A DNA stretch of 64,000 nucleotides from Caldisericia bacterium (GTDB lineage Bacteria; Caldisericota; Caldisericia; JAAYUI01). The position numbers and the translations under genes were made by a program. The stretch is from contig OY771555.1 of NCBI GenBank assembly GCA_963674785.1, positions 1,792,001 through 1,856,000 on the forward strand. The letters run 5' to 3'. Each line of letters opens with the position of its first letter. Position 1 is the first letter of the stretch. Below are positions 54,297 through 63,040 of the stretch, in pieces. Under the pieces are notes generated by a model. The model did no database searches. It saw only the letters and a list, made by a program, of their open reading frames with translations, and had not been told where the DNA came from.

Positions 54297-55316
54297 TCAT
54301 TTCAAACTTGATCTCATATAGGTTCCACCTGGAAGTTTTTTTATAATATTTTTCAAATCTAAAACTGTTAAAACTGGTAAAACAGCCTCCGGAGGAAGAT
54401 TTAGAGCTGTGCAAAGTTCATCTAGTGTAAGCGGATTTGAACAAGCTGCAACAACCTTTGATTCAAGATCGCTTAAAACAGTTTCGTTACTCTGAAGACC
54501 CACACCAAGGACTTCAAGCACATCATTTGGGGAATCAACGAGGATCGCTGAATCCTTTATCAACCTGTTGCATCCAGCAAAACTGTTCATACCAGGAAGC
54601 CCTGGGCAAGCCATCACATCTCTTCCAAGCTCCATTGCTTTCCTTGCAGTTATTAATGCTCCAGACTTTTCTGGGGCTTCAACGACAACAATGGCAGATG
54701 AAAGTGCTGCAATTATTCTATTTCTCCAGGTGAATGTCCATTTGCCTGCAGGGAAATTATCTGGGAATTCCGAAACAATAGCTCCTTTTTTAATAATCCT
54801 CTCAGCAAAGGATTTTTTTCTACTTGTGAGCTTCCCGATACCTGAACCGATAACGGCAACAGTTGTTCCATCCGCATCAAGACAGCCTTCATGTGATGAG
54901 CTATCTATACCATCTGCAAGGCCTGAAACAATAGAAATACCAGAGCTTGCTATGTCTCTGGCAAACGATCTTGCAATGTGCATGCCCTGAGGTGTTGCCT
55001 TTCTTGTTCCAACCATGGCAACGGAATTTTTTGAAACTTCATTAAGATCTGCATTACCCCTCATAAATAAACAAACCGGTGGGCTTTCAAGGTGAAAAAG
55101 CGCCACCGGATATTTTTCATCATCCTGAGTAATAATCTCAGAATCAGACTCTCTTAACTCAACCTCAGCAAACTTTCGGGCTTCGCTGAGGGCTTTCTTA
55201 TCAATACTACCTAGAATACTGTCCGGACTATTTTCTTTTACAGCCGAACAGATGGAAGGCTTCCTGCTTGCAAGAATTGCAAGAGTCAACCAATCCAATC
55301 TAGATAACTCACTCAC
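54297..55316 (-). CDS. dprA: DNA-processing protein DprA
   Basis: AMVGTR, IVSGLADGID, RNRIIAALS, VVEA..KSGALIT, C-terminal winged helix. Confidence 0.95.
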   Translation of the reverse strand: MSELSRLDWLTLAILASRKPSICSAVKENSPDSILGSIDKKALSEARKFAEVELRESDSEIITQDDEKYPVALFHLESPPVCLFMRGNADLNEVSKNSVAMVGTRKATPQGMHIARSFARDIASSGISIVSGLADGIDSSSHEGCLDADGTTVAVIGSGIGKLTSRKKSFAERIIKKGAIVSEFPDNFPAGKWTFTWRNRIIAALSSAIVVVEAPEKSGALITARKAMELGRDVMACPGLPGMNSFAGCNRLIKDSAILVDSPNDVLEVLGVGLQSNETVLSDLESKVVAACSNPLTLDELCTALNLPPEAVLPVLTVLDLKNIIKKLPGGTYMRSSLK

Positions 55317-55582
55317 TATAGCTTTTTATTATAGACCCAAGTCAATGAAGCCAAACCGGTGAAAACCAAAAAGGCACCGAAAGAGGCAACAACCCACTGC
55401 TGAAATGGAGTTTTGTCAAGCAGATATTTCATACTTCCTGCCGAACTCATCAATCTCTCAACTCTTTTAATGTTGTCGGGTCGAATGGCATCCCATACCT
55501 CAAGACCAATTATCAAACAAAGACAGAGGGCTGCAAGCGCCACAAGGACAAACATAATTGCGGTTGCTTTTTCTTCCTTCAT
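55316..55582 (-). CDS. Small two-TM membrane protein, possible complex subunit
   Basis: 88 aa, two hydrophobic helices, abuts or overlaps both neighbours. Confidence 0.72.
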   Translation of the reverse strand: MKEEKATAIMFVLVALAALCLCLIIGLEVWDAIRPDNIKRVERLMSSAGSMKYLLDKTPFQQWVVASFGAFLVFTGLASLTWVYNKKL

Positions 55583-55831
55583 CTATTTTTCCTTTCCTAA
55601 CAAATTCTCAAAAAATGATACTTTTCTTGTGATTCTTCCCCTTGCCTTTTCAGATGCATACATCCCAAAAACGAGAAGAAACATCGAAACCAAAAAGAGC
55701 AAAAAGAAAACAATAATCTGAAAATAGAGCATAAACCCACTAAAATCAGATTTGACTAAATTTACTATCTGAGAAACTGAGAATATCGCAGCAAACAAAG
55801 CCAAGAAGAAAAGTATCAAATGTTTGTTCAT
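55583..55831 (-). CDS. Small two-TM membrane protein, possible complex subunit
   Basis: 82 aa, two hydrophobic helices, TAATG overlap with the cytochrome b stop. Confidence 0.72.
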   Translation of the reverse strand: MNKHLILFFLALFAAIFSVSQIVNLVKSDFSGFMLYFQIIVFFLLFLVSMFLLVFGMYASEKARGRITRKVSFFENLLGKEK

Positions 55832-57885
55832 TATTCGGCTCTCACCTCTACCAAACCAGGGTCAATTCCGAGTTTTTCAGCAAGAACTTTCTTTTTATTG
55901 GATTTCCTCATACGCCACCAGACATAAAGCAGGAAGGCAACAATAAACACAAAAGCATTAAAGAGAAGAATTGCATTTATATACAACTGTCTTTGAGCAT
56001 CTTGGAACGGAATCCAATAAGCAGCCAATGAACCAAACAAGAAGAAGGTTAGACCGCCAATCGCAAGCGTGATAAGTCCAGGTCTTCCCTTGGCTGATCT
56101 TTCGGGTCGTTTGTCAAACAGTGGAAACATGACAAGGAAAACAATGAATAGTAGCGTAACGAGTGTTCCAACATATCCCGGAAGGAATTTCAAATAGAAG
56201 TAGACAAATAGGAAATACCAATCCGGCAGAATATGGTCGGGCGTTTTTACGGTGTTCGGAGGTGGTTCGTTTGCCGCAGGCAGATATAAACACGCGGAAA
56301 CAATTACAACCACAAGCAATAGTATTGCAATCCAATTTATCTTTGGTCGCTTTTTCCTTGATCTGATAAAGTATATCTCTGCCATCATAAATAGAAGGAT
56401 CGGCAAGAAATAATGGATAATATTGAATCTGAGGATTGTTGTTTGTCCAACCTGATGAGCTCCAAGACCCATATACTTTAGAGCTGAACCAAGACCTAAT
56501 TGTCCAATAACCGGCATACTATCCAGAGAATTCATCATCTGAGTACCAACAGTCGTAGCCCAGTATGCCCTTTGGTCGAATGGAAGAAGGTAACCTGTGA
56601 CACCAGAGAATGTTATTAGAACGACAATGATTGTAAGGAGTATCCAAGTAAGTTCGCCTGGTTTTTTAAACTCACCACAGAAAAACATTCTTATCCACCT
56701 AAGCATAAGAAGTGCAATAATTCCGTATGCACCATATCTATGGATTCCTCTTATCCACTGGGTAAGAGGTTTTTTTGAGATTTCTGCAACAGAATTATAA
56801 GCTCTGGTTACTGTCACGCCCAAATCTTCTGTGATTGTGTCGGCAGATTTTCCCATCAAACCAGTAAGTTCTTCAACAGCAATCTTCACAGCATCATCTT
56901 TACCATGGGCAAAATGATGGAGCTTTTCTTTCTGTTCTTCCGACAGGTTAGCAAAAATTGGTTCAAGTTTTTGAGATTCTTCGATTGCATCGGGAATAGG
57001 TAATCCAGCATATGTTGTACCATCAATGACTTCAGCTTTTGTTTTTCCCGCAAACTGAAGAATGCTTCTCTCATAATCAGTGACCGTATCGCTTTCCTTG
57101 AGCATTGCTTCATCTGCTTCAGCAATCATATCATCAATTGTGATAGTTGTCTTTTCACCATTTTCAATCTTTGCTATAGGTAGCCCATAAGAAAGAAGTG
57201 TTGTAGAATCCTCGCTCAACCTATAAATAGAAAACAACTCAATGATATGGTCTCGAAGAACATCAGCTTCATCAATGGCCTCGGTTATCTGAGTTTCTCC
57301 ATGATATGTTCCGGCAACCAAATCATCAGCATCCTCAGAGGCAAGTTCCATGATTTTAAGATAGTTTTCATCACAGGCAACTTGCTCTTCATCTGTCATC
57401 TTCTTGTATTCTTTTTCATGACTTTTACCAAGAGTAATGAGTCCCTCAAGGTCTCTGACAGGTGAATCGATCTCAAGATTTTCGACTACATATTCAAAAT
57501 CCTTTTTTCCAACAACCTCAAAAATCTCTCTCTGGTGTTCAGAATCAAAATCATAATGCTCGATAAAAAGATGATGAATCTCCTCTGCCTCTTCCATCAC
57601 CATCTCATATGTATGTCCATGTGAATACGTAACAAGCCCGGGTTCAACTTTATCAACTGGTGTGGTGTCAGGAATATAGAGGAATGTCAACACAAGCCCG
57701 AGGCAGACCTGCAAAATGAGCAACACATATATCATAGAACCCATCCAGTAGAATGGATTCGATTTCTTATACTCAGGTGTATTTTCATCCAGAATATTCA
57801 TATTCTGGGCTCTATCTCTCCACCATCTCATCCACTTTTTCGAGAAGTTTGAGAGCCAAATTGCAAATTTATCTGTAATACTCAC
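55831..57885 (-). CDS. Cytochrome b (Rieske/cytb type) with ~290-aa insert; only bL His ligands; PDWY motif
   Basis: GYLLPFDQRAYWA, PDHILPDWYFLF, IRGIHRYG, RFNIIH; second His of each pair replaced by R and Y. Confidence 0.88.
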   Translation of the reverse strand: MSITDKFAIWLSNFSKKWMRWWRDRAQNMNILDENTPEYKKSNPFYWMGSMIYVLLILQVCLGLVLTFLYIPDTTPVDKVEPGLVTYSHGHTYEMVMEEAEEIHHLFIEHYDFDSEHQREIFEVVGKKDFEYVVENLEIDSPVRDLEGLITLGKSHEKEYKKMTDEEQVACDENYLKIMELASEDADDLVAGTYHGETQITEAIDEADVLRDHIIELFSIYRLSEDSTTLLSYGLPIAKIENGEKTTITIDDMIAEADEAMLKESDTVTDYERSILQFAGKTKAEVIDGTTYAGLPIPDAIEESQKLEPIFANLSEEQKEKLHHFAHGKDDAVKIAVEELTGLMGKSADTITEDLGVTVTRAYNSVAEISKKPLTQWIRGIHRYGAYGIIALLMLRWIRMFFCGEFKKPGELTWILLTIIVVLITFSGVTGYLLPFDQRAYWATTVGTQMMNSLDSMPVIGQLGLGSALKYMGLGAHQVGQTTILRFNIIHYFLPILLFMMAEIYFIRSRKKRPKINWIAILLLVVVIVSACLYLPAANEPPPNTVKTPDHILPDWYFLFVYFYLKFLPGYVGTLVTLLFIVFLVMFPLFDKRPERSAKGRPGLITLAIGGLTFFLFGSLAAYWIPFQDAQRQLYINAILLFNAFVFIVAFLLYVWWRMRKSNKKKVLAEKLGIDPGLVEVRAE

Positions 57886-57899
57886 CTATCTCCTCCTTC

Positions 57900-58742
57900 T
57901 CAAAATACCGGCATTTCATCAACTTGTGCAGCTGAGAAAACTGGACCATCCTGACATACATAGTGATGTCCAACATTGCACCGACCACATTTTCCAAATC
58001 CACAATTCATTCTTGCTTCAAGTGAAACAAAAATGTTTTCTTTTGGGAAGCCAATCTTATCGAGTGCTATCAATGTGAACTTGATCATTATCGGTGGACC
58101 AGACGCTATAACTGCAGTATTGGTAAATCCTGGGTCATCCTTAAACAGAAGCGATGACTTGTTTGCGAATTCTTTATCATAGAACTGAGGTACAACACCT
58201 ACATCGTGAGTCCAATTTTTGTCACCGTTATCAACAGTCAGCTTGATGTCAAAGTCTTTGACAGATTTCCATTCATCAAGTTCTGGTTTGAAAACAAGGT
58301 CACCTGGTGTTCTTGCTCCATACAAAAGCTCCATTCTTTTGAAGTCATTTCTGTTATCAAAAGTATACTGCATAATGTTGCTAATAGCTGGAAGCCCAAC
58401 ACCACCAGCCATGAATGAAATATTCTTGCCTTTAAGTTTGTCTACTGGGAAGCCATTTCCAAATGGTCCCCTGAATGTGAGATTGTCACCAACTAAGTGC
58501 TCATGGATTTTTTCAGTAACCGCACCAACACTGGCAATAGTAAGCTTGATAAATCCCTTCTGAGTTGGGGATGAACCGATAGAGATTGCGGATTCACCAA
58601 CACCCGGAACACCAACAATACAAAACTGACCAGGATTATAATTCAAATCATTCTTGAGTTTCAGCTTGAATGATTTTATAGACTCTGTTTCATTGATAAT
58701 TTCTAAAATTTCAACTATTTCTGGTTTTGACATATCTGTCAT
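57900..58742 (-). CDS. FlxA/HydG/AsrB-like FAD/NAD-binding [2Fe-2S] subunit
   Basis: PGQF, RGPFGNGF, AGGVG, YGART, GPPIM, MNCGFGKCGRC..CQDGPVF; start after GGAGG. Confidence 0.9.
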   Translation of the reverse strand: MTDMSKPEIVEILEIINETESIKSFKLKLKNDLNYNPGQFCIVGVPGVGESAISIGSSPTQKGFIKLTIASVGAVTEKIHEHLVGDNLTFRGPFGNGFPVDKLKGKNISFMAGGVGLPAISNIMQYTFDNRNDFKRMELLYGARTPGDLVFKPELDEWKSVKDFDIKLTVDNGDKNWTHDVGVVPQFYDKEFANKSSLLFKDDPGFTNTAVIASGPPIMIKFTLIALDKIGFPKENIFVSLEARMNCGFGKCGRCNVGHHYVCQDGPVFSAAQVDEMPVF

Positions 58743-59782
58743 AAAACACCTCCTAATGAGGCTAATGTGTCTGCAAGAGAGATTCCAGCAGGACAAAGGT
58801 CTGTGCATCTTCCACAACCTGTACATGCAATCTCGCCATAGAGAGTCACATGATATTCAAATTTATCCAAGATTCTGTTTTTGAATCTGTCAGCGGTTGT
58901 TGGTCGCGGGTTGTGTCCGGATGCCTCAAGGCTGTATGTGCAGAAACTACAAGAGTCCCAGCATTTAATCTTTTCAGATTCATCTGGTTTCGTCTTGATC
59001 TCTCTGGTTTCAAAACAGTGACATGTCGGGCAAAGAAGGGTACAGACACCACATGTGATACAACCCATGCTAACTTCTTCCCAAACATCTGTTTTCTTGT
59101 AGAGATCCATGAGTTTTCCGGCGTTTTCTGTTGGAACCTTCAAAGTAATCATGGATTCACATTTTTTGTTTGCCTCAGCCTGGGCAGCAGCGGGATTTCC
59201 ATCATCTGTGAAGAAGGATTTATTATCAGCAAGGAATTTTTTTCCTTTTTCTGAAACCTGCATCACAGTGTATCCACCAATGTCTGGAATAAAGAGAAGG
59301 TCTGAACCCTTTTCATCTGCAGGATGAATTCCAAGTGATGTACATGAACAGGTTGAAAGAGGTTTTGTGCAGGCAACCGAAAAAACAAGGGTTTTTTCAC
59401 GATGTTTCTTCCACTGTGGATCAATATGCTTCTGCTCTCCACCATCTTTTCTTTTTGTGTCCATAAAGAAATTATCAAGGAGCATAAATCCTTTTGCATC
59501 GCACGGTCTCACACCAAAAATTACAGTGTTCTCGATTTCAGGTGCTTCTTTAATTTCAAGTATTTTTCCAGCGGTCGATCTTGTTGTAAGAATTTTTTCT
59601 GTCTGCGGAAAGATAATCTCTTTTGGTGGTGTTTTTGTTCTAACTGTATCCAAATCTATTTTTGCATTTTCAGCAATTAGATGAAAATTTGTTGTTCCAT
59701 CAATCTTCTGAGGGACAAAAACTCTCGCATTATCAGAGATTGTAAGAAGAAGTTCGTTAAGTTTATCGTGTGTAATCTTCAT
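58739..59782 (-). CDS. FlxB/HydB/AsrA-like 4Fe-4S protein
   Basis: PKEIIFPQTE, FGVRPCD, CITCGVCTLLCPTCHC, CTGCGRCTDLCP. Confidence 0.88.
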   Translation of the reverse strand: MKITHDKLNELLLTISDNARVFVPQKIDGTTNFHLIAENAKIDLDTVRTKTPPKEIIFPQTEKILTTRSTAGKILEIKEAPEIENTVIFGVRPCDAKGFMLLDNFFMDTKRKDGGEQKHIDPQWKKHREKTLVFSVACTKPLSTCSCTSLGIHPADEKGSDLLFIPDIGGYTVMQVSEKGKKFLADNKSFFTDDGNPAAAQAEANKKCESMITLKVPTENAGKLMDLYKKTDVWEEVSMGCITCGVCTLLCPTCHCFETREIKTKPDESEKIKCWDSCSFCTYSLEASGHNPRPTTADRFKNRILDKFEYHVTLYGEIACTGCGRCTDLCPAGISLADTLASLGGVL

Positions 59783-59787
59783 AAAAA

Positions 59788-60780
59788 TCAACCCCCTAAA
59801 ACTTCCTCACCCTTTATGAGTGACAATGGGGATGTAGCCTTTTCAGAGATTCCAGCGGCAAATTCCCAGTTTTCCTTCTGCATCAGTCTGAGCTGGTCTG
59901 TAATAATATTCAATGGAATATTCTCAGGACACGCCCTTGTACATTCGCCACAACCAGTGCATCTGTCTGAAAGGTGGTAAAAGTGAATAAAATGATACTG
60001 CAGAATGTCTTTTAGTTCGTGTGATTTATGAATGAATGGTTCAGGAAGCTTCTGCCTGTCCATAACACAGTTCTCATTACAATGACAGCCTGGGCAGGCA
60101 TCTCTACACGCAAAACACATTACACATCTTGAGAGGTGTTTTAAAATGAAGTCCTGTCTCACATGGAATGGTTTATCTTTATATTCAGAAACCCAATCCA
60201 TATTCATTTCATCCTTTGACTCTCTTGGATCGTCATCTGGAATCAAAAGATCGAAGTTATCTGGTTTTGTGATTGAACAATGGATACATTTTGGAAGCAA
60301 CCAATCTTCTCTCTCGAGTTTCATCTTTGAACCATCGAGGAGTTCAAGCTGAATACTCTTTCCATCATCAATGATTTCTTTTGAGTCAATATGAAGTGAA
60401 TCTCTCATTCGAGATACATCAAGGTTTCCTGAGCAGTTTACTCCTAGTACCCAGAAACCGTGTCTGTCGAGTTTACTCTCAGAGACGCTGACTTTTATCG
60501 ATTTTGAATCACACCCTTTAACAAGAATTCCAATTTTTTTCTTTGGCTGTTTCAAAGATTTTATGAAGTTGCTTTTTCCTTCAATCATCCTCACAAGGTT
60601 TTGAGTGCAGAACGAATCGTAAACCAACTTATCAGCATCCTCTGCTGTCCTACAAACGAATGGTCTTCTTTTTCCAGATATTCCGTCTACTTTTCTATAA
60701 CCGATAAAAGCAGAGATTTTTCCAGAGTTAAGCTCATCTTTTACTACCTCGCGGAGGTACTCTAAAATCTGTGTGTTCAT
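59788..60780 (-). CDS. FlxC-like (FrhB/FdhB-related) 4Fe-4S protein
   Basis: KGCD, KCIHC, CVMCFACRDACPGCHC, CTGCGECTRACP. Confidence 0.85.
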   Translation of the reverse strand: MNTQILEYLREVVKDELNSGKISAFIGYRKVDGISGKRRPFVCRTAEDADKLVYDSFCTQNLVRMIEGKSNFIKSLKQPKKKIGILVKGCDSKSIKVSVSESKLDRHGFWVLGVNCSGNLDVSRMRDSLHIDSKEIIDDGKSIQLELLDGSKMKLEREDWLLPKCIHCSITKPDNFDLLIPDDDPRESKDEMNMDWVSEYKDKPFHVRQDFILKHLSRCVMCFACRDACPGCHCNENCVMDRQKLPEPFIHKSHELKDILQYHFIHFYHLSDRCTGCGECTRACPENIPLNIITDQLRLMQKENWEFAAGISEKATSPLSLIKGEEVLGG

Positions 60781-61184
60781 ACAGCAACCTCCTTTTCAGC
60801 AAGATTCTTTTTTAGAGATGAGATTGTTCTTGTGAGTTGACCAGGGTCAAGCCTGTCTCTTTGAATGTAAACCATTCTCCATGGGTCAATTCCAAGAGCC
60901 TCAGCTACATTTTTTGCTGAGAAGACCCTTCTTTTTGCAAATTGGTTTCCATCAAAATTGTGGCAATCAAACTCGGGGCAGGCGTAAACAATAACACCAC
61001 CCGCACCCTCCATTAGTGACTTAAACATAACAATAGGGTTTACCATTCCAGCACAAGCAATTTCGACAAAATCGACGCTTGGAAACCTGTTTTTATGTTC
61101 TTCAAGATGTTTTCCTCGAAGAGAACCTTTACAATGAAGAACAATGATTTTCTCACCAATAGGAAGTTCTACTGACTTATGCAT
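60777..61184 (-). CDS. MvhD/FlxD-like [2Fe-2S] subunit
   Basis: LHC, CAGMV, GAGGV..C...DCH..GN..A.RR, GIDP.R MvhD pattern. Confidence 0.85.
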   Translation of the reverse strand: MHKSVELPIGEKIIVLHCKGSLRGKHLEEHKNRFPSVDFVEIACAGMVNPIVMFKSLMEGAGGVIVYACPEFDCHNFDGNQFAKRRVFSAKNVAEALGIDPWRMVYIQRDRLDPGQLTRTISSLKKNLAEKEVAV

Positions 61185-62239
61185 ATATCCCTCATTCCCT
61201 GGAGCAATCCTTTGCTCTCCATTCCTTCAAGTTCAATCACCTGAGGAAGACAACCAGCAACGCATATCCCACAAGCCTGACATCTTCTCGGCGTAACATA
61301 TGCAACCTGTTTGGTTTCAGTTCTGTTGATTTTATATGTTTTTTTGCTTATTGCATTTTTTGGACAAAGAGTAATGCATGCAAAGCAACCATTACATCTG
61401 GCAGGGTCAACTTTCGCTGCTTTTGTAATCTTTTTGCCAATAAGAGGTAATGCTACAAGCAGACCCACAATGCCAACCCAAACGATCTGTGCAATGTTTT
61501 GAGATGGCAGTTTTATCATCCATAATCCAACCCAATCAAATGAATATTTAGCAAATTTCATTTTCATTTCGGCTTCAGGGATTGGGAATAGTGCAATAAT
61601 TATTGCAAGGAAACCCAATGAGATAATCGTAAGAGCAATTGTTGGAACAATTGGTGGTCTCGAAATTCTGACGAAATGCCAAATGAGTCCAGCAAAAACA
61701 AGAATAGGAAGACCAATGTGTACAGCTCTGTAAATAACCAGCAGGGCACCAGAAGAAATCGACATCCCGAAGAACTCAACAATTTTAAATGACCTTGCAT
61801 CCATAGGAAGAATATATCCAGAAACAGTGATTCCAATGGTCATAATAAGAAGACCAATACCGACATACCAACCAACTGATCTTGTGCTTGTATGTCTTCC
61901 TGCAAAAAGTTTTCTGAGTAGATGCAATACAGCAAAGATTATCATTGCATCTGCTGCATACCTGTGGAGTGTTCTGATAAATAATCCATAAGGTACCATA
62001 TCAGACATAATGTAAAGAACAGAGTTTCTCGCATGTTCAATCGATGGCATATAAAAGAAACTAAGAAGGAACCCTGAGATTATCTGAACAAGAAAAAACA
62101 ATAATGTCAGAGAGCCAAGATGATTGAAAATATTAATTGATGAAAAACCTGCCTTTAAAACGTCAGCGATTCCAAGAAACCCATTAATGAAAAAATTAAA
62201 AGGTTTTCTAAGACTATAAGCATCTCGTCTACTCATCAT
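61169..62239 (-). CDS. Cytochrome b N-domain (four heme His) fused to C-terminal 2x[4Fe-4S] ferredoxin
   Basis: H-x13-H in both helices B and D; CNGCFACITLCP and CQACGICVAGC. Confidence 0.88.
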   Translation of the reverse strand: MMSRRDAYSLRKPFNFFINGFLGIADVLKAGFSSINIFNHLGSLTLLFFLVQIISGFLLSFFYMPSIEHARNSVLYIMSDMVPYGLFIRTLHRYAADAMIIFAVLHLLRKLFAGRHTSTRSVGWYVGIGLLIMTIGITVSGYILPMDARSFKIVEFFGMSISSGALLVIYRAVHIGLPILVFAGLIWHFVRISRPPIVPTIALTIISLGFLAIIIALFPIPEAEMKMKFAKYSFDWVGLWMIKLPSQNIAQIVWVGIVGLLVALPLIGKKITKAAKVDPARCNGCFACITLCPKNAISKKTYKINRTETKQVAYVTPRRCQACGICVAGCLPQVIELEGMESKGLLQGMRDICISQ

Positions 62240-62796
62240 GCTAGCCTTTCCGGAGTTTTTTTATCAATAATTATGCTTCCATCATCTTCAACAATAACCG
62301 TCCAAGGATGAAGAGGGCTTGGAGGTGGACCACCAAGGACTTTGGTCATAGTTGGGTCAAAGAAACCATCATGACATCTACAATGCCATGTTTTTGATTC
62401 TGTATTCCATCTGACAACACAACCAAGATGAGTACATTTTGCATCCCAAGCCATAAGCGTACCATTTGTATCCTTAATCAAAATTCCGGGTTCCCTAATT
62501 TTGATTGGCTTGTAAGGGATTGAACGATCTTCGGTGATGATCTCAAAAGAATATCCGACCATGCTTTCAAGCTCATCTTTTTTCGCAGGGACTGGTACGA
62601 AAGAATCACCAACGGGTTTCATGACGGATGCTAATTTGTTAACCGCAACGGGCGCTGGTGGCACCTCAAGTCCAATCTTACCAAATGGCTTCAAAAGTCT
62701 GAGAATCGGTGATAAAGCAGCTAGAATTGCTCCAAAAAAAGGAACAGCTAGCAGGACTTTTAGCAGTTGCCTTCGAGTGACCTTTTTTTCTTCCAC
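62236..62796 (-). CDS. Rieske [2Fe-2S] subunit with Tat-like anchor
   Basis: TRRQLLK plus TM helix, CTHLGC, CRCHDG, GPPP; GTG start after AAGGAGG. Confidence 0.92.
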   Translation of the reverse strand: MEEKKVTRRQLLKVLLAVPFFGAILAALSPILRLLKPFGKIGLEVPPAPVAVNKLASVMKPVGDSFVPVPAKKDELESMVGYSFEIITEDRSIPYKPIKIREPGILIKDTNGTLMAWDAKCTHLGCVVRWNTESKTWHCRCHDGFFDPTMTKVLGGPPPSPLHPWTVIVEDDGSIIIDKKTPERLA

Positions 62797-62990: not shown

Positions 62991-63018
62991 AAAAAAGCGG
63001 GGCTCAAGCGAGCCCCGC
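62991..63018 (-). terminator. Intrinsic terminator
   Basis: GCGGGGCTC-GCTT-GAGCCCCGC followed by a T-run on the minus strand. Confidence 0.88.
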
Positions 63019-63040
63019 CAACATAAAGTTTTTGTTTTAT

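What the first reader, a model, noticed from the sequence alone, without database searches (positions are those of the whole stretch)
55316..62796. Rieske/cytochrome b operon wired to a flxDCBA-like NAD(H) module, without HdrABC or cytochrome c
Seen: nine tightly coupled genes in the order Rieske, cytb-ferredoxin, MvhD/FlxD, FlxC, FlxB, FlxA, cytb with insert, and two small TM proteins. None has a recognisable cytochrome c domain (the CxxCH strings in FlxB/FlxC sit inside Fe-S motifs), and there is no hdrA/B/C or NiFe subunit. Known: flxDCBA occurs in this order after hdrCBA in Hdr-Flx flavin-based bifurcating complexes, and Rieske/cytb complexes bifurcate at the Qo site. Inference: a quinone-based bifurcating membrane module has taken the place of HdrABC, linking the quinone pool to NAD(H) in a fermenter. 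NAD(P)-oxidoreductase-linked Rieske/cytb clusters are known in anammox planctomycetes, so novelty needs checking. This Flx-linked architecture is not one I recognise as characterised.
Basis: partly seen in the sequence, partly recalled or inferred. Interest (0 to 1): 0.9.

Follow-up and report, generated by a model that had tools for sequence, protein, structure and literature searches.

The report
Lopsided Rieske/cytochrome b complex wired to NAD(H)
An uncultured anaerobe (Caldisericia) encodes a respiratory Rieske/cytochrome b complex built from two unlike cytochrome b subunits, one of them joined through a chain of iron-sulfur proteins to an NAD(P)H-binding flavoprotein, a rare way of connecting membrane quinones directly to NAD(H).

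Summary
Nine co-directional, mostly overlapping genes at 55316-62796 (minus strand) encode Rieske, a short dihaem cytochrome b fused to 2x[4Fe-4S], MvhD, an FrhB/FdhB-like Fe-S protein ("FlxC"), sulfhydrogenase beta/gamma-like "FlxB"/"FlxA" (FAD/NAD(P), 2Fe-2S), a long cytochrome b with an acidic insert of about 285 aa, and two small membrane proteins.

New here:
- The long cytochrome b keeps the Qo motif (PDWY) and the p-side haem ligands. Both n-side haem ligands are replaced (Arg, Tyr/Phe) in every orthologue examined.
- The short one keeps all four His. This implies an asymmetric b/b' pair.
- The seven-gene core is syntenic in two Caldisericia families. It co-occurs with MenA-like and Ccm genes.
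- A wider family (Rieske, one-haem cytochrome b, cytochrome b-ferredoxin, MvhD) without Flx sits beside cbb3-type oxidase genes in other metagenome contigs.

The genome does hold an Mvh-Hdr cluster, a Ccm system and monohaem c-type candidates elsewhere. The Rieske is of the low-potential type.

Wiring of quinol oxidation to NAD(P)(H) is well supported. Direction is open: I favour NAD(P)H input (0.45) over quinol-driven NAD(P)+ reduction (0.30).

Verdict: a new variant of the known kind, Rieske/cytochrome b complexes carrying a cytoplasmic NAD(P) oxidoreductase.

The parts
62996..63019 (-). Terminator-like hairpin of the upstream gene; marks the 5' border of the operon
   Evidence: 10-bp stem, 8 GC pairs, T-run. 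It is followed by a TTGACA hexamer, AGGAGG and the GTG start of the Rieske gene.
62236..62796 (-). Rieske [2Fe-2S] protein, 186 aa, with a twin-arginine N-terminus (TRRQLL) and one TM helix; low-potential-type box II (C-R-C-H-D-G-F-F)
   Evidence: PF00355. Closest solved chain is 9rk3_A, E 2.1e-13, then b6f PetC. TM at 14-32. Gly at +2 and Phe at +4 after the second cluster His in 8 of 8 orthologues.
61169..62239 (-). Short cytochrome b (6 TM, four His haem ligands, Hx13H twice) fused to a cytoplasmic 2x[4Fe-4S] ferredoxin domain ('cytbFd'), 356 aa
   Evidence: PF00033 plus Fer4 families. Alignment to b6 chains. The 4 His and 8 Cys are invariant in alignments A1 and A3. The Fd domain matches the HdrA2 model at 571-633.
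60777..61184 (-). MvhD/FlxD-like [2Fe-2S] adaptor, 135 aa
   Evidence: PF02662, 68.6 bits. Matches the HdrA2 model at 676-769. Fused to cytbFd in other phyla.
59788..60780 (-). 'FlxC': Fe-S protein, 330 aa, with an FrhB/FdhB-like N-domain and a 2x[4Fe-4S] C-domain plus extra conserved Cys
   Evidence: Fer4 families. 15 invariant Cys. The AF2 model is confident only for residues 1-170 (mean pLDDT 59). Foldseek hits 8rvu_E, 7bkb_E and FrhB chains at E 2e-10 to 1e-6. The C-domain is 28% identical to FlxB over 98 aa.
58739..59791 (-). 'FlxB': sulfhydrogenase beta / AsrA-like Fe-S subunit, 350 aa
   Evidence: NF040829 ShyB 171.8 bits and TIGR02910 AsrA 126 bits, all below the equivalog cut-offs. 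9nez_B (P. furiosus SHI beta), E 1.5e-45 over the full length.
57900..58742 (-). 'FlxA': FAD/NAD(P)-binding, [2Fe-2S] subunit (HydG/AsrB-like). 280 aa from the ATG at 58742; the longest ORF starts at 58826
   Evidence: PF00970, PF00175, PF10418. 9nez_C (SHI gamma), E 8.7e-50. ATGA overlap with the FlxB stop. Orthologues are 280-310 aa.
55831..57885 (-). Long cytochrome b ('cytbL'), 684 aa, 8 TM. It has a PDWY Qo motif and p-side haem ligands only (n-side His100 to Arg, His202 to Tyr). An insert of about 285 aa, very acidic, lies in the p-side AB loop (residues about 73-356)
   Evidence: PF00033 + PF00032. Alignment to b6 chain 6rqf_I. Substitutions found in 9 of 9 orthologues and in 14 of 14 Caldisericia-type rows against His in 7 of 7 ordinary cytochromes b. 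Insert composition: 69 D+E against 24 K+R. The insert is absent in family f5.
55583..55831 (-). Small membrane protein, 82 aa, 2 TM
   Evidence: No Pfam or NCBIfam match. TM prediction. Orthologues in f1. Two small TM ORFs lie at the same place in f5, and between the two cytochromes b in the wider family.
55316..55582 (-). Small membrane protein, 88 aa, 2 TM
   Evidence: As above.

Best explanation
The nine genes encode one membrane complex: an asymmetric Rieske/cytochrome b complex with a cytoplasmic NAD(P)(H) module.

Wiring (about 0.75 likely):
- The long cytochrome b (Qo motif PDWY, p-side haem only) and the Rieske protein form the single menaquinol site on the outer face.
- An electron on its only haem cannot reach an n-side haem in the same subunit. 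It must pass to the p-side haem of the second, short cytochrome b, then to that subunit's n-side haem.
- That haem is connected through the fused 2x[4Fe-4S] domain, MvhD [2Fe-2S], the FrhB-like FlxC and the sulfhydrogenase beta-like FlxB to the FAD/NAD(P) site of FlxA.
- The Rieske cluster faces outward and exchanges electrons with c-type cytochromes made by the Ccm system encoded elsewhere.

Direction (inferred, about 0.45):
- In these fermenters NAD(P)H is the donor. FlxABC-MvhD acts as the NADH-dehydrogenase module, feeding the n-side haem and a quinone-reducing site of the short cytochrome b.
- Menaquinol is re-oxidised at Qo. One electron leaves by the low-potential Rieske to cytochrome c and an unknown outer acceptor. 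The other returns across the b/b' pair (a Q cycle spread over a heterodimer).
- The complex would then be an NAD(P)H:cytochrome c oxidoreductase that builds proton-motive force.

Shown: domains, ligands, synteny, co-occurrence. Inferred: that the proteins form one complex, the heterodimer, the quinone-reducing site, the direction, and the acceptor.
For: One unit:
- 7 of 8 junctions overlap or abut, and a terminator lies just upstream.
- The same seven-gene order occurs in 7 of 7 full loci of families f1 and f5 and in 14 complete metagenome loci.
- cytbFd was found in 25 of 93 genomes of the phylum, confined to f1 (10/10 plus G000), f5 (13/13) and f6 (1/2).
- RNA-library contigs of a roughly 90%-identical relative cover 55316-55706 and 57757-58738; the latter bridges the FlxA/cytbL junction. 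These contigs do not prove a single transcript, and DNA may be present in the library.

Asymmetry:
- cytbL aligned to b6 (6rqf_I) keeps His86/His187 and has Arg and Tyr at His100/His202. The assignment of those b6 residues to haems bp and bn is recalled.
- The same holds in 9 of 9 orthologues, in 14 of 14 Caldisericia-type rows and in 14-15 of 15 loci of the wider family.
- PDWY is invariant.
- cytbFd keeps 4 His and 8 Cys.
- Heterodimer fold: weak support. Score 0.53; best of 3 controls 0.00. The mark was reached by 58 of 80 solved complexes and 2 of 110 mismatched pairs, but at 0.60 or under by only 7 of those 80 and by both mismatches. Runs agree in at least 90% of contacts; partner pLDDT is at least 76. 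The pass may come from memory of cytochrome b homodimers.

Fe-S wire:
- cytb-Fd-MvhD single-chain fusions exist.
- The Fd domain and MvhD are colinear with HdrA2.
- FlxC has an FrhB/FdhB-like fold.
- FlxB and FlxA match SHI beta and gamma.

NAD(P)H as donor:
- Low-potential-type Rieske in 8 of 8 orthologues, against Ser-bearing Rieske in the oxidase-linked relatives, 12 of 12. Ser and Tyr raise the potential by about 130 and 65 mV (PMC12954380, passages).
- G000 has no NuoF-type module and no Rnf/Nqr. Its nuo set has 11 subunits.
- In f5 none of NuoH (0/7), cytochrome bd (0/7), NarI-type (0/7), NrfD-type (0/7) or Ni_hydr_CYTB (0/5 over the cut-off) was found. The cluster may therefore be the only quinone enzyme there and would have to both reduce and oxidise menaquinone.
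- FlxA is the predicted NADH dehydrogenase of Flx-Hdr (PMC4759654, passages).

Quinone and cytochrome c:
- MenA-like genes and Ccm co-occur exactly with the cluster in 41 relatives: f1 10/10, f5 7/7, f2-f4 0/23.
- A monohaem c-like domain is conserved in f1, 9/10.
Against: - No experiment and no structure exist. Association of the Flx proteins with the cytochromes rests on gene order and on fusions in other lineages.
- A quinone-reducing site on the short cytochrome b is not shown. The residue 5 positions after its second helix-D His is Ser/Ala, not the His of bc1 or the Arg of b6 (the bc1 and b6 residues are recalled).
- Loss of the n-side haem in the Qo-bearing subunit is what one would expect if the Q cycle had been abolished to force electrons into the Fe-S wire. 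That favours the rival.
- No terminal acceptor is identified. G000 has no molybdopterin enzyme, no haem-copper oxidase and no cytochrome bd, and its only FAD_binding_2 protein looks like NadB.
- NDH-2, SQR, GlpD, DHODH, ETF-QO and similar quinone reductases were not searched, so 'only quinone enzyme in f5' is provisional.
- The co-occurrence rests on very few independent events, because related genomes are not independent.
- MenA reaches NCBIfam's cut-off in only 3 of 41 genomes.
- MenD and MqnA/D were not found in G000. ALAD was not found in G000 or in the 10 other f1 genomes. The complex can therefore work only with imported haem and a naphthoquinone precursor.
Confidence: 0.45

Rival explanations
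1. Quinol-based electron bifurcation towards NAD(P)+. Menaquinol, made for example by the 11-subunit Nuo from ferredoxin, is oxidised at Qo. One electron falls to the Rieske, cytochrome c and an outer oxidant. The other is forced through b, b', the [4Fe-4S] clusters, MvhD and FlxCBA to reduce NAD(P)+. There is no Q cycle.
For: - Both n-side haem ligands are lost in the only Qo-bearing subunit in all orthologues. This removes the usual route back to the quinone pool, as a forced outlet would need.
- No His/Arg signature of a quinone or haem-cn site follows helix D of the short cytochrome b (reference residues recalled).
- The same scheme is proposed for Kuenenia complexes that carry an NAD(P) oxidoreductase (PMC12954380, passages).
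- In G000 the Nuo-11 set could supply menaquinol, and nothing else found could oxidise it.
- The wider family sits beside cbb3-type oxidase and cytochrome c genes, which give a strong pull.
Against: - The Caldisericia Rieske lacks both potential-raising residues (8 of 8). With menaquinone near -70 mV, a Rieske near +100 mV (my estimate) leaves roughly -250 mV for the low branch, short of NAD+ at -320 mV, before paying for charge transfer across the membrane.
- No high-potential terminal reductase was found in G000.
- f5 genomes show no other quinone reductase among the five families searched, so there is no evident source of menaquinol.
- A fermenter needs to dispose of NADH rather than make it (general knowledge).
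Confidence: 0.3
2. The Flx-like proteins are not subunits of the cytochrome complex. They form a soluble NAD(P)H:acceptor oxidoreductase, for instance serving the Hdr-Mvh complex encoded elsewhere, and merely share an operon with an otherwise self-contained Rieske/cytochrome b complex.
For: - G000 encodes HdrC, HdrB, a double HdrA and a NiFe hydrogenase at C1:1370058-1380229.
- In the wider family the core (Rieske, cytbL, cytbFd, MvhD) exists without Flx genes nearby in 15 of 15 loci.
- FlxB and FlxA homologues are soluble subunits in sulfhydrogenase.
Against: - The flx genes lie between the two cytochrome b genes with overlapping start and stop codons. They stay there in 7 of 7 genomic and 14 complete metagenomic loci across about 37-79% identity.
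- The Hdr-Mvh cluster has two MvhD paralogues and a Pyr_redox_2 flavoprotein of its own.
- MvhD is fused to the cytochrome in other phyla.
Confidence: 0.08
3. Reverse or conduit operation. Either NADH plus an outer weak reductant jointly reduce menaquinone at Qo (confurcation), or the haems and a bound quinone act as a plain transmembrane wire from NADH to surface cytochromes for extracellular electron transfer, without a free quinone pool.
For: - The three c-type candidates are secreted proteins with Cu_amine_oxidN1 domains, one with an NHL propeller and one with a PQQ_2-type propeller.
- Quinone-ring synthesis genes were not found.
- The chain runs from a cytoplasmic flavin to an outward-facing Rieske.
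Against: - The invariant PDWY site and the co-occurring MenA and UbiE genes point to ordinary quinol chemistry.
- No menaquinol oxidiser exists to make use of confurcation.
- Short-circuit transfer at Qo is normally avoided (general knowledge).
Confidence: 0.07

Closest known systems
Anammox Rieske/cytochrome b complexes with an NAD(P) oxidoreductase (Kuenenia Kuste4569-4574, Kustd1480-1485)
   Same: - A Rieske/cytochrome b core carries a cytoplasmic FAD/NAD(P) and Fe-S module reached from the n-side of the cytochrome.
- The quinone is menaquinone.
- The function is proposed but unproven (PMC12954380, passages; PMC5600118, passages).
- The closest solved Rieske by sequence is 9rk3_A. Its S/F pair fits Kustd1480 as described in that paper; this identification is my inference.
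   Different: - There are no multihaem cytochromes c in the operon.
- There are two unlike cytochromes b, one of them with a single haem, instead of a modelled homodimer with an extra interface haem.
- The NAD(P) module is MvhD + FrhB-like + SHI beta/gamma-like proteins. Homology to the anammox subunit was not tested.
- The Rieske lacks Ser and Tyr, whereas the anammox proteins measure above +300 mV.
FlxABCD of the FlxABCD-HdrABC NADH dehydrogenase/heterodisulfide reductase (Desulfovibrio vulgaris)
   Same: Four proteins of the same types in the order D-C-B-A: MvhD, two Fe-S proteins, and an FAD/NAD(P) protein predicted to oxidise NADH (PMC4759654, passages). The order hdrCBA-flxDCBA is recalled.
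   Different: - No hdrABC lies next to them. A cytochrome b-ferredoxin fusion stands in the HdrA position.
- Sequence orthology to the Desulfovibrio proteins was not tested, because no reference sequence was at hand.
- FlxC looks FrhB/FdhB-like by fold.
Pyrococcus furiosus sulfhydrogenase I beta/gamma (PDB 9nez) and AsrAB of anaerobic sulfite reductase
   Same: FlxB and FlxA align over their full length with SHI beta and gamma (E 1.5e-45 and 8.7e-50) and with the AsrA/AsrB models.
   Different: - No NiFe hydrogenase subunits and no sirohaem subunit are among the nine proteins.
- All NCBIfam scores are below the equivalog cut-offs.
Menaquinol:cytochrome c oxidoreductases of the b6f/b6c type
   Same: Rieske box spacing and best profile matches are to b6f PetC. 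The cytochrome b best matches b6. The Qo motif is PDWY.
   Different: - No cytochrome c/f subunit gene is present.
- There is no Cys at the haem-cn position.
- The n-side haem is lost in the Qo-bearing subunit.
- A second cytochrome b carries an Fe-S tail.
Uncharacterised wider family seen here: Rieske, one-haem cytochrome b, two small TM proteins, cytochrome b-ferredoxin, MvhD, beside cbb3-type oxidase genes (metagenome loci such as L164). It possibly corresponds to the 'complex III/IV' operons reported for Melainabacteria
   Same: - The same four core proteins are present, with the same loss of n-side ligands (15 of 15 at helix B, 14 of 15 at helix D).
- The Rieske membrane anchor is very similar.
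- Operons with petB/petC next to type C oxidases are described in PMC6349859 (passages).
   Different: - No Flx genes were found.
- The gene order differs.
- The Rieske carries Ser (12 of 12), and the Qo motif is SDWY.
- The taxa of these contigs were not determined. The Atlas only hints at Armatimonadota, Melainabacteria and Pseudomonadota.

Membership tests
Rieske/cytochrome b complex (bc1/b6f superfamily) | Rieske subunit with CxHxGC ... CxCH boxes, including the disulfide cysteines | tested here: met
   CTHLGC-x12-CRCH. PF00355 31.4 bits against a cut-off of 20.3. Aligned to solved Rieske chains. Conserved in 8 of 8 orthologues.
Rieske/cytochrome b complex (bc1/b6f superfamily) | Cytochrome b with four His ligands for haems bp and bn | tested here: inconclusive
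   Met by the short cytochrome b. Not met by the long, Qo-bearing one: the bn ligands are Arg and Tyr/Phe.
Rieske/cytochrome b complex (bc1/b6f superfamily) | Qo-site PEWY-type motif in the C-terminal part or subunit IV | tested here: met
   PDWY is invariant in 9 of 9 orthologues and in 14 of 14 Caldisericia-type rows. PF00032 match.
Rieske/cytochrome b complex (bc1/b6f superfamily) | A c-type cytochrome subunit encoded with the complex | tested here: not met
   No cytochrome c domain in the nine proteins. The CxxCH strings lie in Fe-S motifs. Candidates exist elsewhere in the genome.
FlxABCD (of Flx-Hdr) | FlxA: FAD/NAD(P)-binding protein with a [2Fe-2S] site | tested here: met
   PF00970, PF00175, PF10418. 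AsrB/HydG-like.
FlxABCD (of Flx-Hdr) | FlxB and FlxC: two Fe-S proteins; FlxD: MvhD | tested here: met
   FlxB: Fer4_22, HydB/AsrA-like. FlxC: 2x[4Fe-4S] plus extra Cys, FrhB-like N-domain. MvhD: PF02662. The definition of the subunits is taken from PMC4759654 passages and from recall.
FlxABCD (of Flx-Hdr) | Encoded next to, and working with, hdrABC | tested here: not met
   No Hdr domain occurs in or beside the operon. The only hdrCB/hdrA genes are about 470 kb away and have their own MvhD copies.
FlxABCD (of Flx-Hdr) | Sequence orthology to the characterised Desulfovibrio proteins | not tested
   No reference sequence was available from a tool, and NCBIfam holds no Flx-specific model among the hits.
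Anammox-type Rieske/cytochrome b with NAD(P) oxidoreductase | Cytoplasmic NAD(P)/FAD/Fe-S module encoded in the Rieske/cytochrome b operon | tested here: met
   FlxA, FlxB, FlxC and MvhD lie between the two cytochrome b genes. The feature is as described in PMC12954380 and PMC5600118.
Anammox-type Rieske/cytochrome b with NAD(P) oxidoreductase | Multihaem cytochromes c in the complex, and a high-potential Rieske (above +300 mV, Ser present) | tested here: not met
   No ORF in the genome has more than one CxxCH. The Rieske has Gly and Phe at the Ser and Tyr positions. The potential itself was not measured.
NiFe sulfhydrogenase (group 3b) / anaerobic sulfite reductase Asr | Catalytic subunits (NiFe large and small, or sirohaem AsrC) beside the beta/gamma-like pair | tested here: not met
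   None among the nine proteins. The genome's only NiFe genes found lie in the Mvh-Hdr cluster. AsrC was not searched genome-wide.

The most novel reading that the evidence does not exclude
This would be a natural heterodimeric Rieske/cytochrome b complex: one subunit with Qo and a single haem, the other with two haems and an Fe-S tail. It has given up the Q cycle so that quinol-based bifurcation can push electrons through MvhD into NAD(P)+, or into other MvhD partners. The Caldisericia operon is then the one member of a multi-phylum, uncharacterised family (Rieske, one-haem cytochrome b, cytochrome b-ferredoxin, MvhD) that names its cytoplasmic partner. It would offer a far simpler test bed than anammox bacteria for quinone-based bifurcation to low-potential acceptors.
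Probability: 0.3. Interest if true: 0.85.

Novelty: new variant of a known kind. Interest (0 to 1): 0.66.

Why it matters
Whether Rieske/cytochrome b complexes can do anything other than the Q cycle is a live question. In particular, can the low-potential electron of quinol oxidation be exported to NAD(P)+ or ferredoxin? So far this rests on anammox complexes that are hard to handle.

What this cluster adds:
- An operon spells out a complete Fe-S path from a cytochrome b to an NAD(P) flavoprotein.
- The Qo-bearing cytochrome b has lost its n-side haem, so the electron path is constrained by anatomy.
- If the b/b' heterodimer is real, it is a natural counterpart of the engineered asymmetric bc1 dimers used to study electron transfer between monomers (recalled).

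For Caldisericia biology, it shows that two families thought of as fermenters carry a haem- and quinone-dependent respiratory module. In family f1 it probably works only with imported haem and a naphthoquinone precursor.

The wider family found in passing suggests that MvhD is a general plug between cytochrome b complexes and cytoplasmic redox enzymes.

Tried and rejected
- Literature:
  - 'Rieske + cytochrome b + MvhD' gave 11 papers, 8 listed. The two opened mention the terms separately.
  - 'Caldiserica + Rieske' gave 2 irrelevant papers. 'Caldisericota + Rieske' gave 0.
  - 'Rieske + FlxABCD' gave 2 reviews. One was opened by passages and uses the terms apart; the other I saw only in the listing.
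  - The search was too loose to be useful.
  - Within this library I therefore found no description of this operon. Figures and supplements of PMC5600118 (its tree with clade G' operons 'of unknown function') could not be seen and might bear on novelty. Supplements were not requested.
- Proteobacterial cytb-Fd-MvhD loci: 0 of 80 had Rieske, Flx or a second cytochrome b nearby at E<=1e-5. They are a different context, beside haem-copper oxidase genes.
- The FlxC model is poor beyond residue 170. TM-scores of the fold hits are low, 0.3-0.45, so only the N-domain likeness is used.
- The insert of the long cytochrome b was not folded. It has no Pfam match of its own and is absent in f5. Its role is unexplained.
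- RNA: only one RNA-library run held a small share (0.05) of the stretch. The parts of the operon without contig cover in it say nothing.
- Hydrogenase, sulfite reductase and Hdr readings of the Flx-like genes were rejected because no catalytic partner lies in the operon.
- Haem cn was rejected: the b6 Cys35 position is His/Ser/Phe/Tyr in the short cytochrome b and Trp/Tyr in the long one.
- A Qmo-like reading was rejected: no NarI-type cytochrome was found in any of 41 relatives.
- Not done: searches for NDH-2 and other quinone reductases; a phylogeny of the Flx subunits against Hdr-Flx, Asr and Hyd; the search of protein representatives.

Full report
**What is there.**
- On the minus strand of 55316-62796 lie nine ORFs in the order Rieske, short cytochrome b fused to a ferredoxin domain (cytbFd), MvhD, FlxC, FlxB, FlxA, long cytochrome b (cytbL), and two small membrane proteins.
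- Start and stop codons overlap or abut at seven of eight junctions. The eighth gap is 14 nt.
- FlxA most likely starts at the ATG at 58742 (ATGA overlap with FlxB), giving 280 aa like its orthologues.
- A strong terminator-like hairpin (63019-62996) closes the upstream gene. It is followed by a TTGACA hexamer, AGGAGG and the GTG start of the Rieske gene.
- Downstream, dprA starts on the last stop codon.
- The window lies in a 2.23-Mb single-contig genome. Its closest database proteins are labelled Caldisericia.

**Conservation.**
- The seven-gene core is in the same order in 7 of 7 full loci taken from four genera of family f1 and three genomes of family f5. An eighth locus is a 4.5-kb contig with FlxB-FlxA-cytbL only.
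- cytbFd identity runs from 79% to about 37%.
- Two small membrane ORFs also follow cytbL in f5.
- Across the 93 species genomes of the phylum, cytbFd (E<=1e-20) is in 25: f1 10/10 plus G000, f5 13/13, f6 1/2; and f2 0/23, f3 0/9, f4 0/26, f7 0/9.
- Among 80 metagenome loci, 14 hold all seven genes in order. Three more are cut by contig ends inside the cluster.
- RNA-library contigs of a roughly 90%-identical relative from a wastewater metatranscriptome cover 55316-55706 and 57757-58738. The latter bridges the FlxA/cytbL junction. Such contigs show neither a single transcript nor, strictly, transcription.

**The two cytochromes b are unlike.**
- Aligned to spinach b6 (6rqf_I), cytbL keeps the residues at His86 and His187 but has Arg at His100 and Tyr at His202. 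By my recollection of b6f structures, the first pair binds the p-side haem and the second pair the n-side haem.
- The substitutions (Arg; Tyr or Phe) are present in 9 of 9 Caldisericia orthologues and in 14 of 14 Caldisericia-type rows of a wider alignment. In that alignment 7 of 7 ordinary cytochromes b have His at both places.
- The Qo motif PDWY is invariant.
- cytbL has eight predicted helices. Between helix A and the ab region, on the p-side, it carries an insert of about 285 residues with 69 acidic against 24 basic residues. The insert is shorter in one f1 genus and absent in f5. I have no explanation for it.
- cytbFd has six helices and four invariant His (Hx13H twice). Its C-terminal domain has eight invariant Cys and must be cytoplasmic.
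- Neither protein has the Cys that binds haem cn.
- The simplest reading is a b/b' heterodimer with one Qo site and three haems. The electron from Qo crosses between the two p-side haems.
- A fold of the f5 pair with three haems gave weak support: score 0.53, best of three controls 0.00. The mark was reached by 58 of 80 solved and 2 of 110 mismatched pairs, but at 0.60 or under by only 7 of the 80 and by both mismatches. Runs agree in at least 90% of contacts, and the partner pLDDT is at least 76. Solved cytochrome b homodimers may explain the pass.

**The cytoplasmic wire.**
- The ferredoxin domain of cytbFd and the next gene, MvhD, match consecutive parts of the HdrA2 model (positions 571-633 and 676-769 of 777).
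- In other bacteria the three parts form a single chain of about 500-560 aa. At least 596 such stretches occur in the species-genome collection, mostly in Pseudomonadota.
- FlxC has 15 invariant Cys. Its N-domain model resembles FrhB/FdhB-type subunits, including the FdhB chains of Hdr supercomplexes (8rvu_E, 7bkb_E). The model is poor beyond residue 170.
- FlxB and FlxA align over their full length with the beta and gamma subunits of Pyrococcus sulfhydrogenase I (9nez; E 1.5e-45 and 8.7e-50) and with AsrA/AsrB. All scores are below the equivalog cut-offs.
- The module is thus of the Flx / SHI-diaphorase kind and ends in an FAD/NAD(P) site.

**Genome context.**
- Quinone and haem: G000 has a MenA-like prenyltransferase (111 bits against a cut-off of 102) and a UbiE-type methyltransferase. 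I found no MenD, MqnA/D or ALAD.
- Cytochrome c: it has ccmABC, a CcmE with a CPSKY motif, and ccmF. It has only single-CxxCH candidates. Among them is a secreted 495-aa protein with a C-terminal monohaem-like domain (weak PF13442 match, below the cut-off). This domain is conserved in f1 9/10 plus G000 and was not found in f5 with this query.
- Co-occurrence: in 41 relatives, MenA-like and Ccm genes follow the cluster exactly (f1 10/10, f5 7/7, f2-f4 0/23). Only a few independent events can underlie this.
- Other respiratory hardware: G000 has an 11-subunit nuo set beside an F-type ATPase operon.
- Not found in G000: a NuoF-type module, Rnf/Nqr, cytochrome bd, a haem-copper oxidase and a molybdopterin enzyme. 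There is also no fumarate reductase: the one FAD_binding_2 protein sits between nadA- and nadC-like genes.
- Hdr-Mvh: a complete Hdr-Mvh-type cluster lies about 470 kb away. It has two MvhD paralogues and a Pyr_redox_2 flavoprotein of its own.

**Direction.** Two readings fit the anatomy.

(a) Outlet. Quinol oxidation at Qo bifurcates, and the low-potential electron is forced to NAD(P)+. This is the anammox proposal (PMC12954380, passages). The loss of the n-side haem in the Qo-bearing subunit speaks for it.

(b) Inlet. NAD(P)H feeds the n-side haem and a quinone-reducing site of the short cytochrome b, and the complex runs a Q cycle across the heterodimer.

Three points speak for (b) in Caldisericia:
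- The Rieske has Gly and Phe where high-potential Rieske proteins have Ser and Tyr (8 of 8). These residues are worth about 130 and 65 mV according to the passages read. The oxidase-linked relatives keep the Ser (12 of 12).
- No other NADH-dehydrogenase module was found.
- In f5 none of five families of quinone enzymes was found. That list is not exhaustive.

I put (b) at about 0.45 and (a) at about 0.30. Either way an outer redox partner above the Rieske potential is required, and none is identified.

**Wider family (found in passing).**
- Fifteen metagenome loci at 28-33% identity carry Rieske, a long cytochrome b, two small membrane ORFs, cytbFd and MvhD, with no Flx hits.
- In L164 they follow COX1, FixO-cytochrome c and cytochrome c genes.
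- Their long cytochrome b also lacks the n-side ligands (Arg/Lys in 15 of 15; Tyr in 14 of 15). Its Qo motif is SDWY.
- The one-haem/two-haem pair plus MvhD is therefore an older, broader design. Caldisericia is the branch in which FlxCBA is written into the operon.

**Comparison and novelty.**
- Rieske/cytochrome b complexes with a cytoplasmic NAD(P)/Fe-S oxidoreductase are in print for anammox bacteria and, by gene proximity, 'in many other cases' (PMC5600118, passages).
- New here are the Flx/MvhD-type module, the cytochrome b-ferredoxin fusion, the asymmetric haem complement, the absence of a c-type subunit gene, and the low-potential Rieske.
- My literature searches found no description of this operon. 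Figures and supplements were not visible.
- I file it as a new variant of a known kind.

Noticed in passing
Loci L139, L142, L147, L148, L151, L154, L158, L161, L164, L168-L172, L175 (metagenome contigs): A related operon without Flx: Rieske, long cytochrome b lacking n-side haem ligands (SDWY Qo motif), two small TM ORFs, cytochrome b-ferredoxin, MvhD. In L164 it lies directly after COX1 (cbb3-type), FixO-cytochrome c and cytochrome c genes. Its Rieske keeps the potential-raising Ser. The taxa are unknown.
   Followed up: partly
Loci L016-L095 (genome contigs); for example L027:5616-13495: Single-chain cytochrome b-2x[4Fe-4S]-MvhD fusions of about 500-560 aa are common (at least 596 stretches) in Magnetococcales and in sulfur-oxidiser-like Gammaproteobacteria. 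In L027 the fusion sits between COX2, COX1, haem O synthase and SCO1 on one side and a second COX1-like gene on the other. No Rieske or Flx lies nearby.
   Followed up: partly
G000:C1:1370058-1380715 (outside the window; locus L106): An Hdr-Mvh-type cluster: HdrC, HdrB, a Pyr_redox_2/rubredoxin-reductase-like flavoprotein, a polyferredoxin, a 259-aa MvhD-domain protein, a 1019-aa double HdrA, MvhD, and NiFe small and large subunits, followed by a 158-aa ORF I did not annotate. It is a possible NAD(P)H-linked Hdr-hydrogenase.
   Followed up: partly
G000 genome-wide; relatives G001-G040: Family f1 genomes show no ALAD (0 of 10, and none in G000). G000 shows no MenD or MqnA/D. Yet f1 genomes carry MenA-like genes and Ccm (both 10 of 10), and G000 also UbiE; its CcmE has a Cys-type CPSKY motif. 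This suggests haem and naphthoquinone-precursor auxotrophs with respiratory hardware. 5 of 7 f5 genomes do have ALAD.
   Followed up: partly
G000:C1:1060877-1063259 and 1271290-1272864 (loci L104, L105): Three secreted proteins each carry one CxxCH and a Cu_amine_oxidN1 domain. One has an NHL propeller and a C-terminal cytochrome c-like domain. One has a PQQ_2/BamB-type propeller with CxxCH right after the signal peptide. These are possible surface redox proteins.
   Followed up: partly
window 55831-57885, residues about 73-356 of the long cytochrome b: An insert of about 285 aa, very acidic (69 D+E, 24 K+R, 12 His, 1 Cys), lies in the p-side AB loop. It is present in f1 (shorter in one genus) and absent in f5 and the wider family. 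Its function is unknown.
   Followed up: no
window 54297-55316 (-): dprA (DNA_processg_A + DprA_WH) starts on the stop codon of the last operon gene, so it may be read through from the respiratory operon.
   Followed up: no
G000:C1:1734799-1744661: An 11-gene nuoABCDHIJKLMN set without nuoEFG lies directly beside an F-type ATP synthase operon, about 47 kb before the window.
   Followed up: partly
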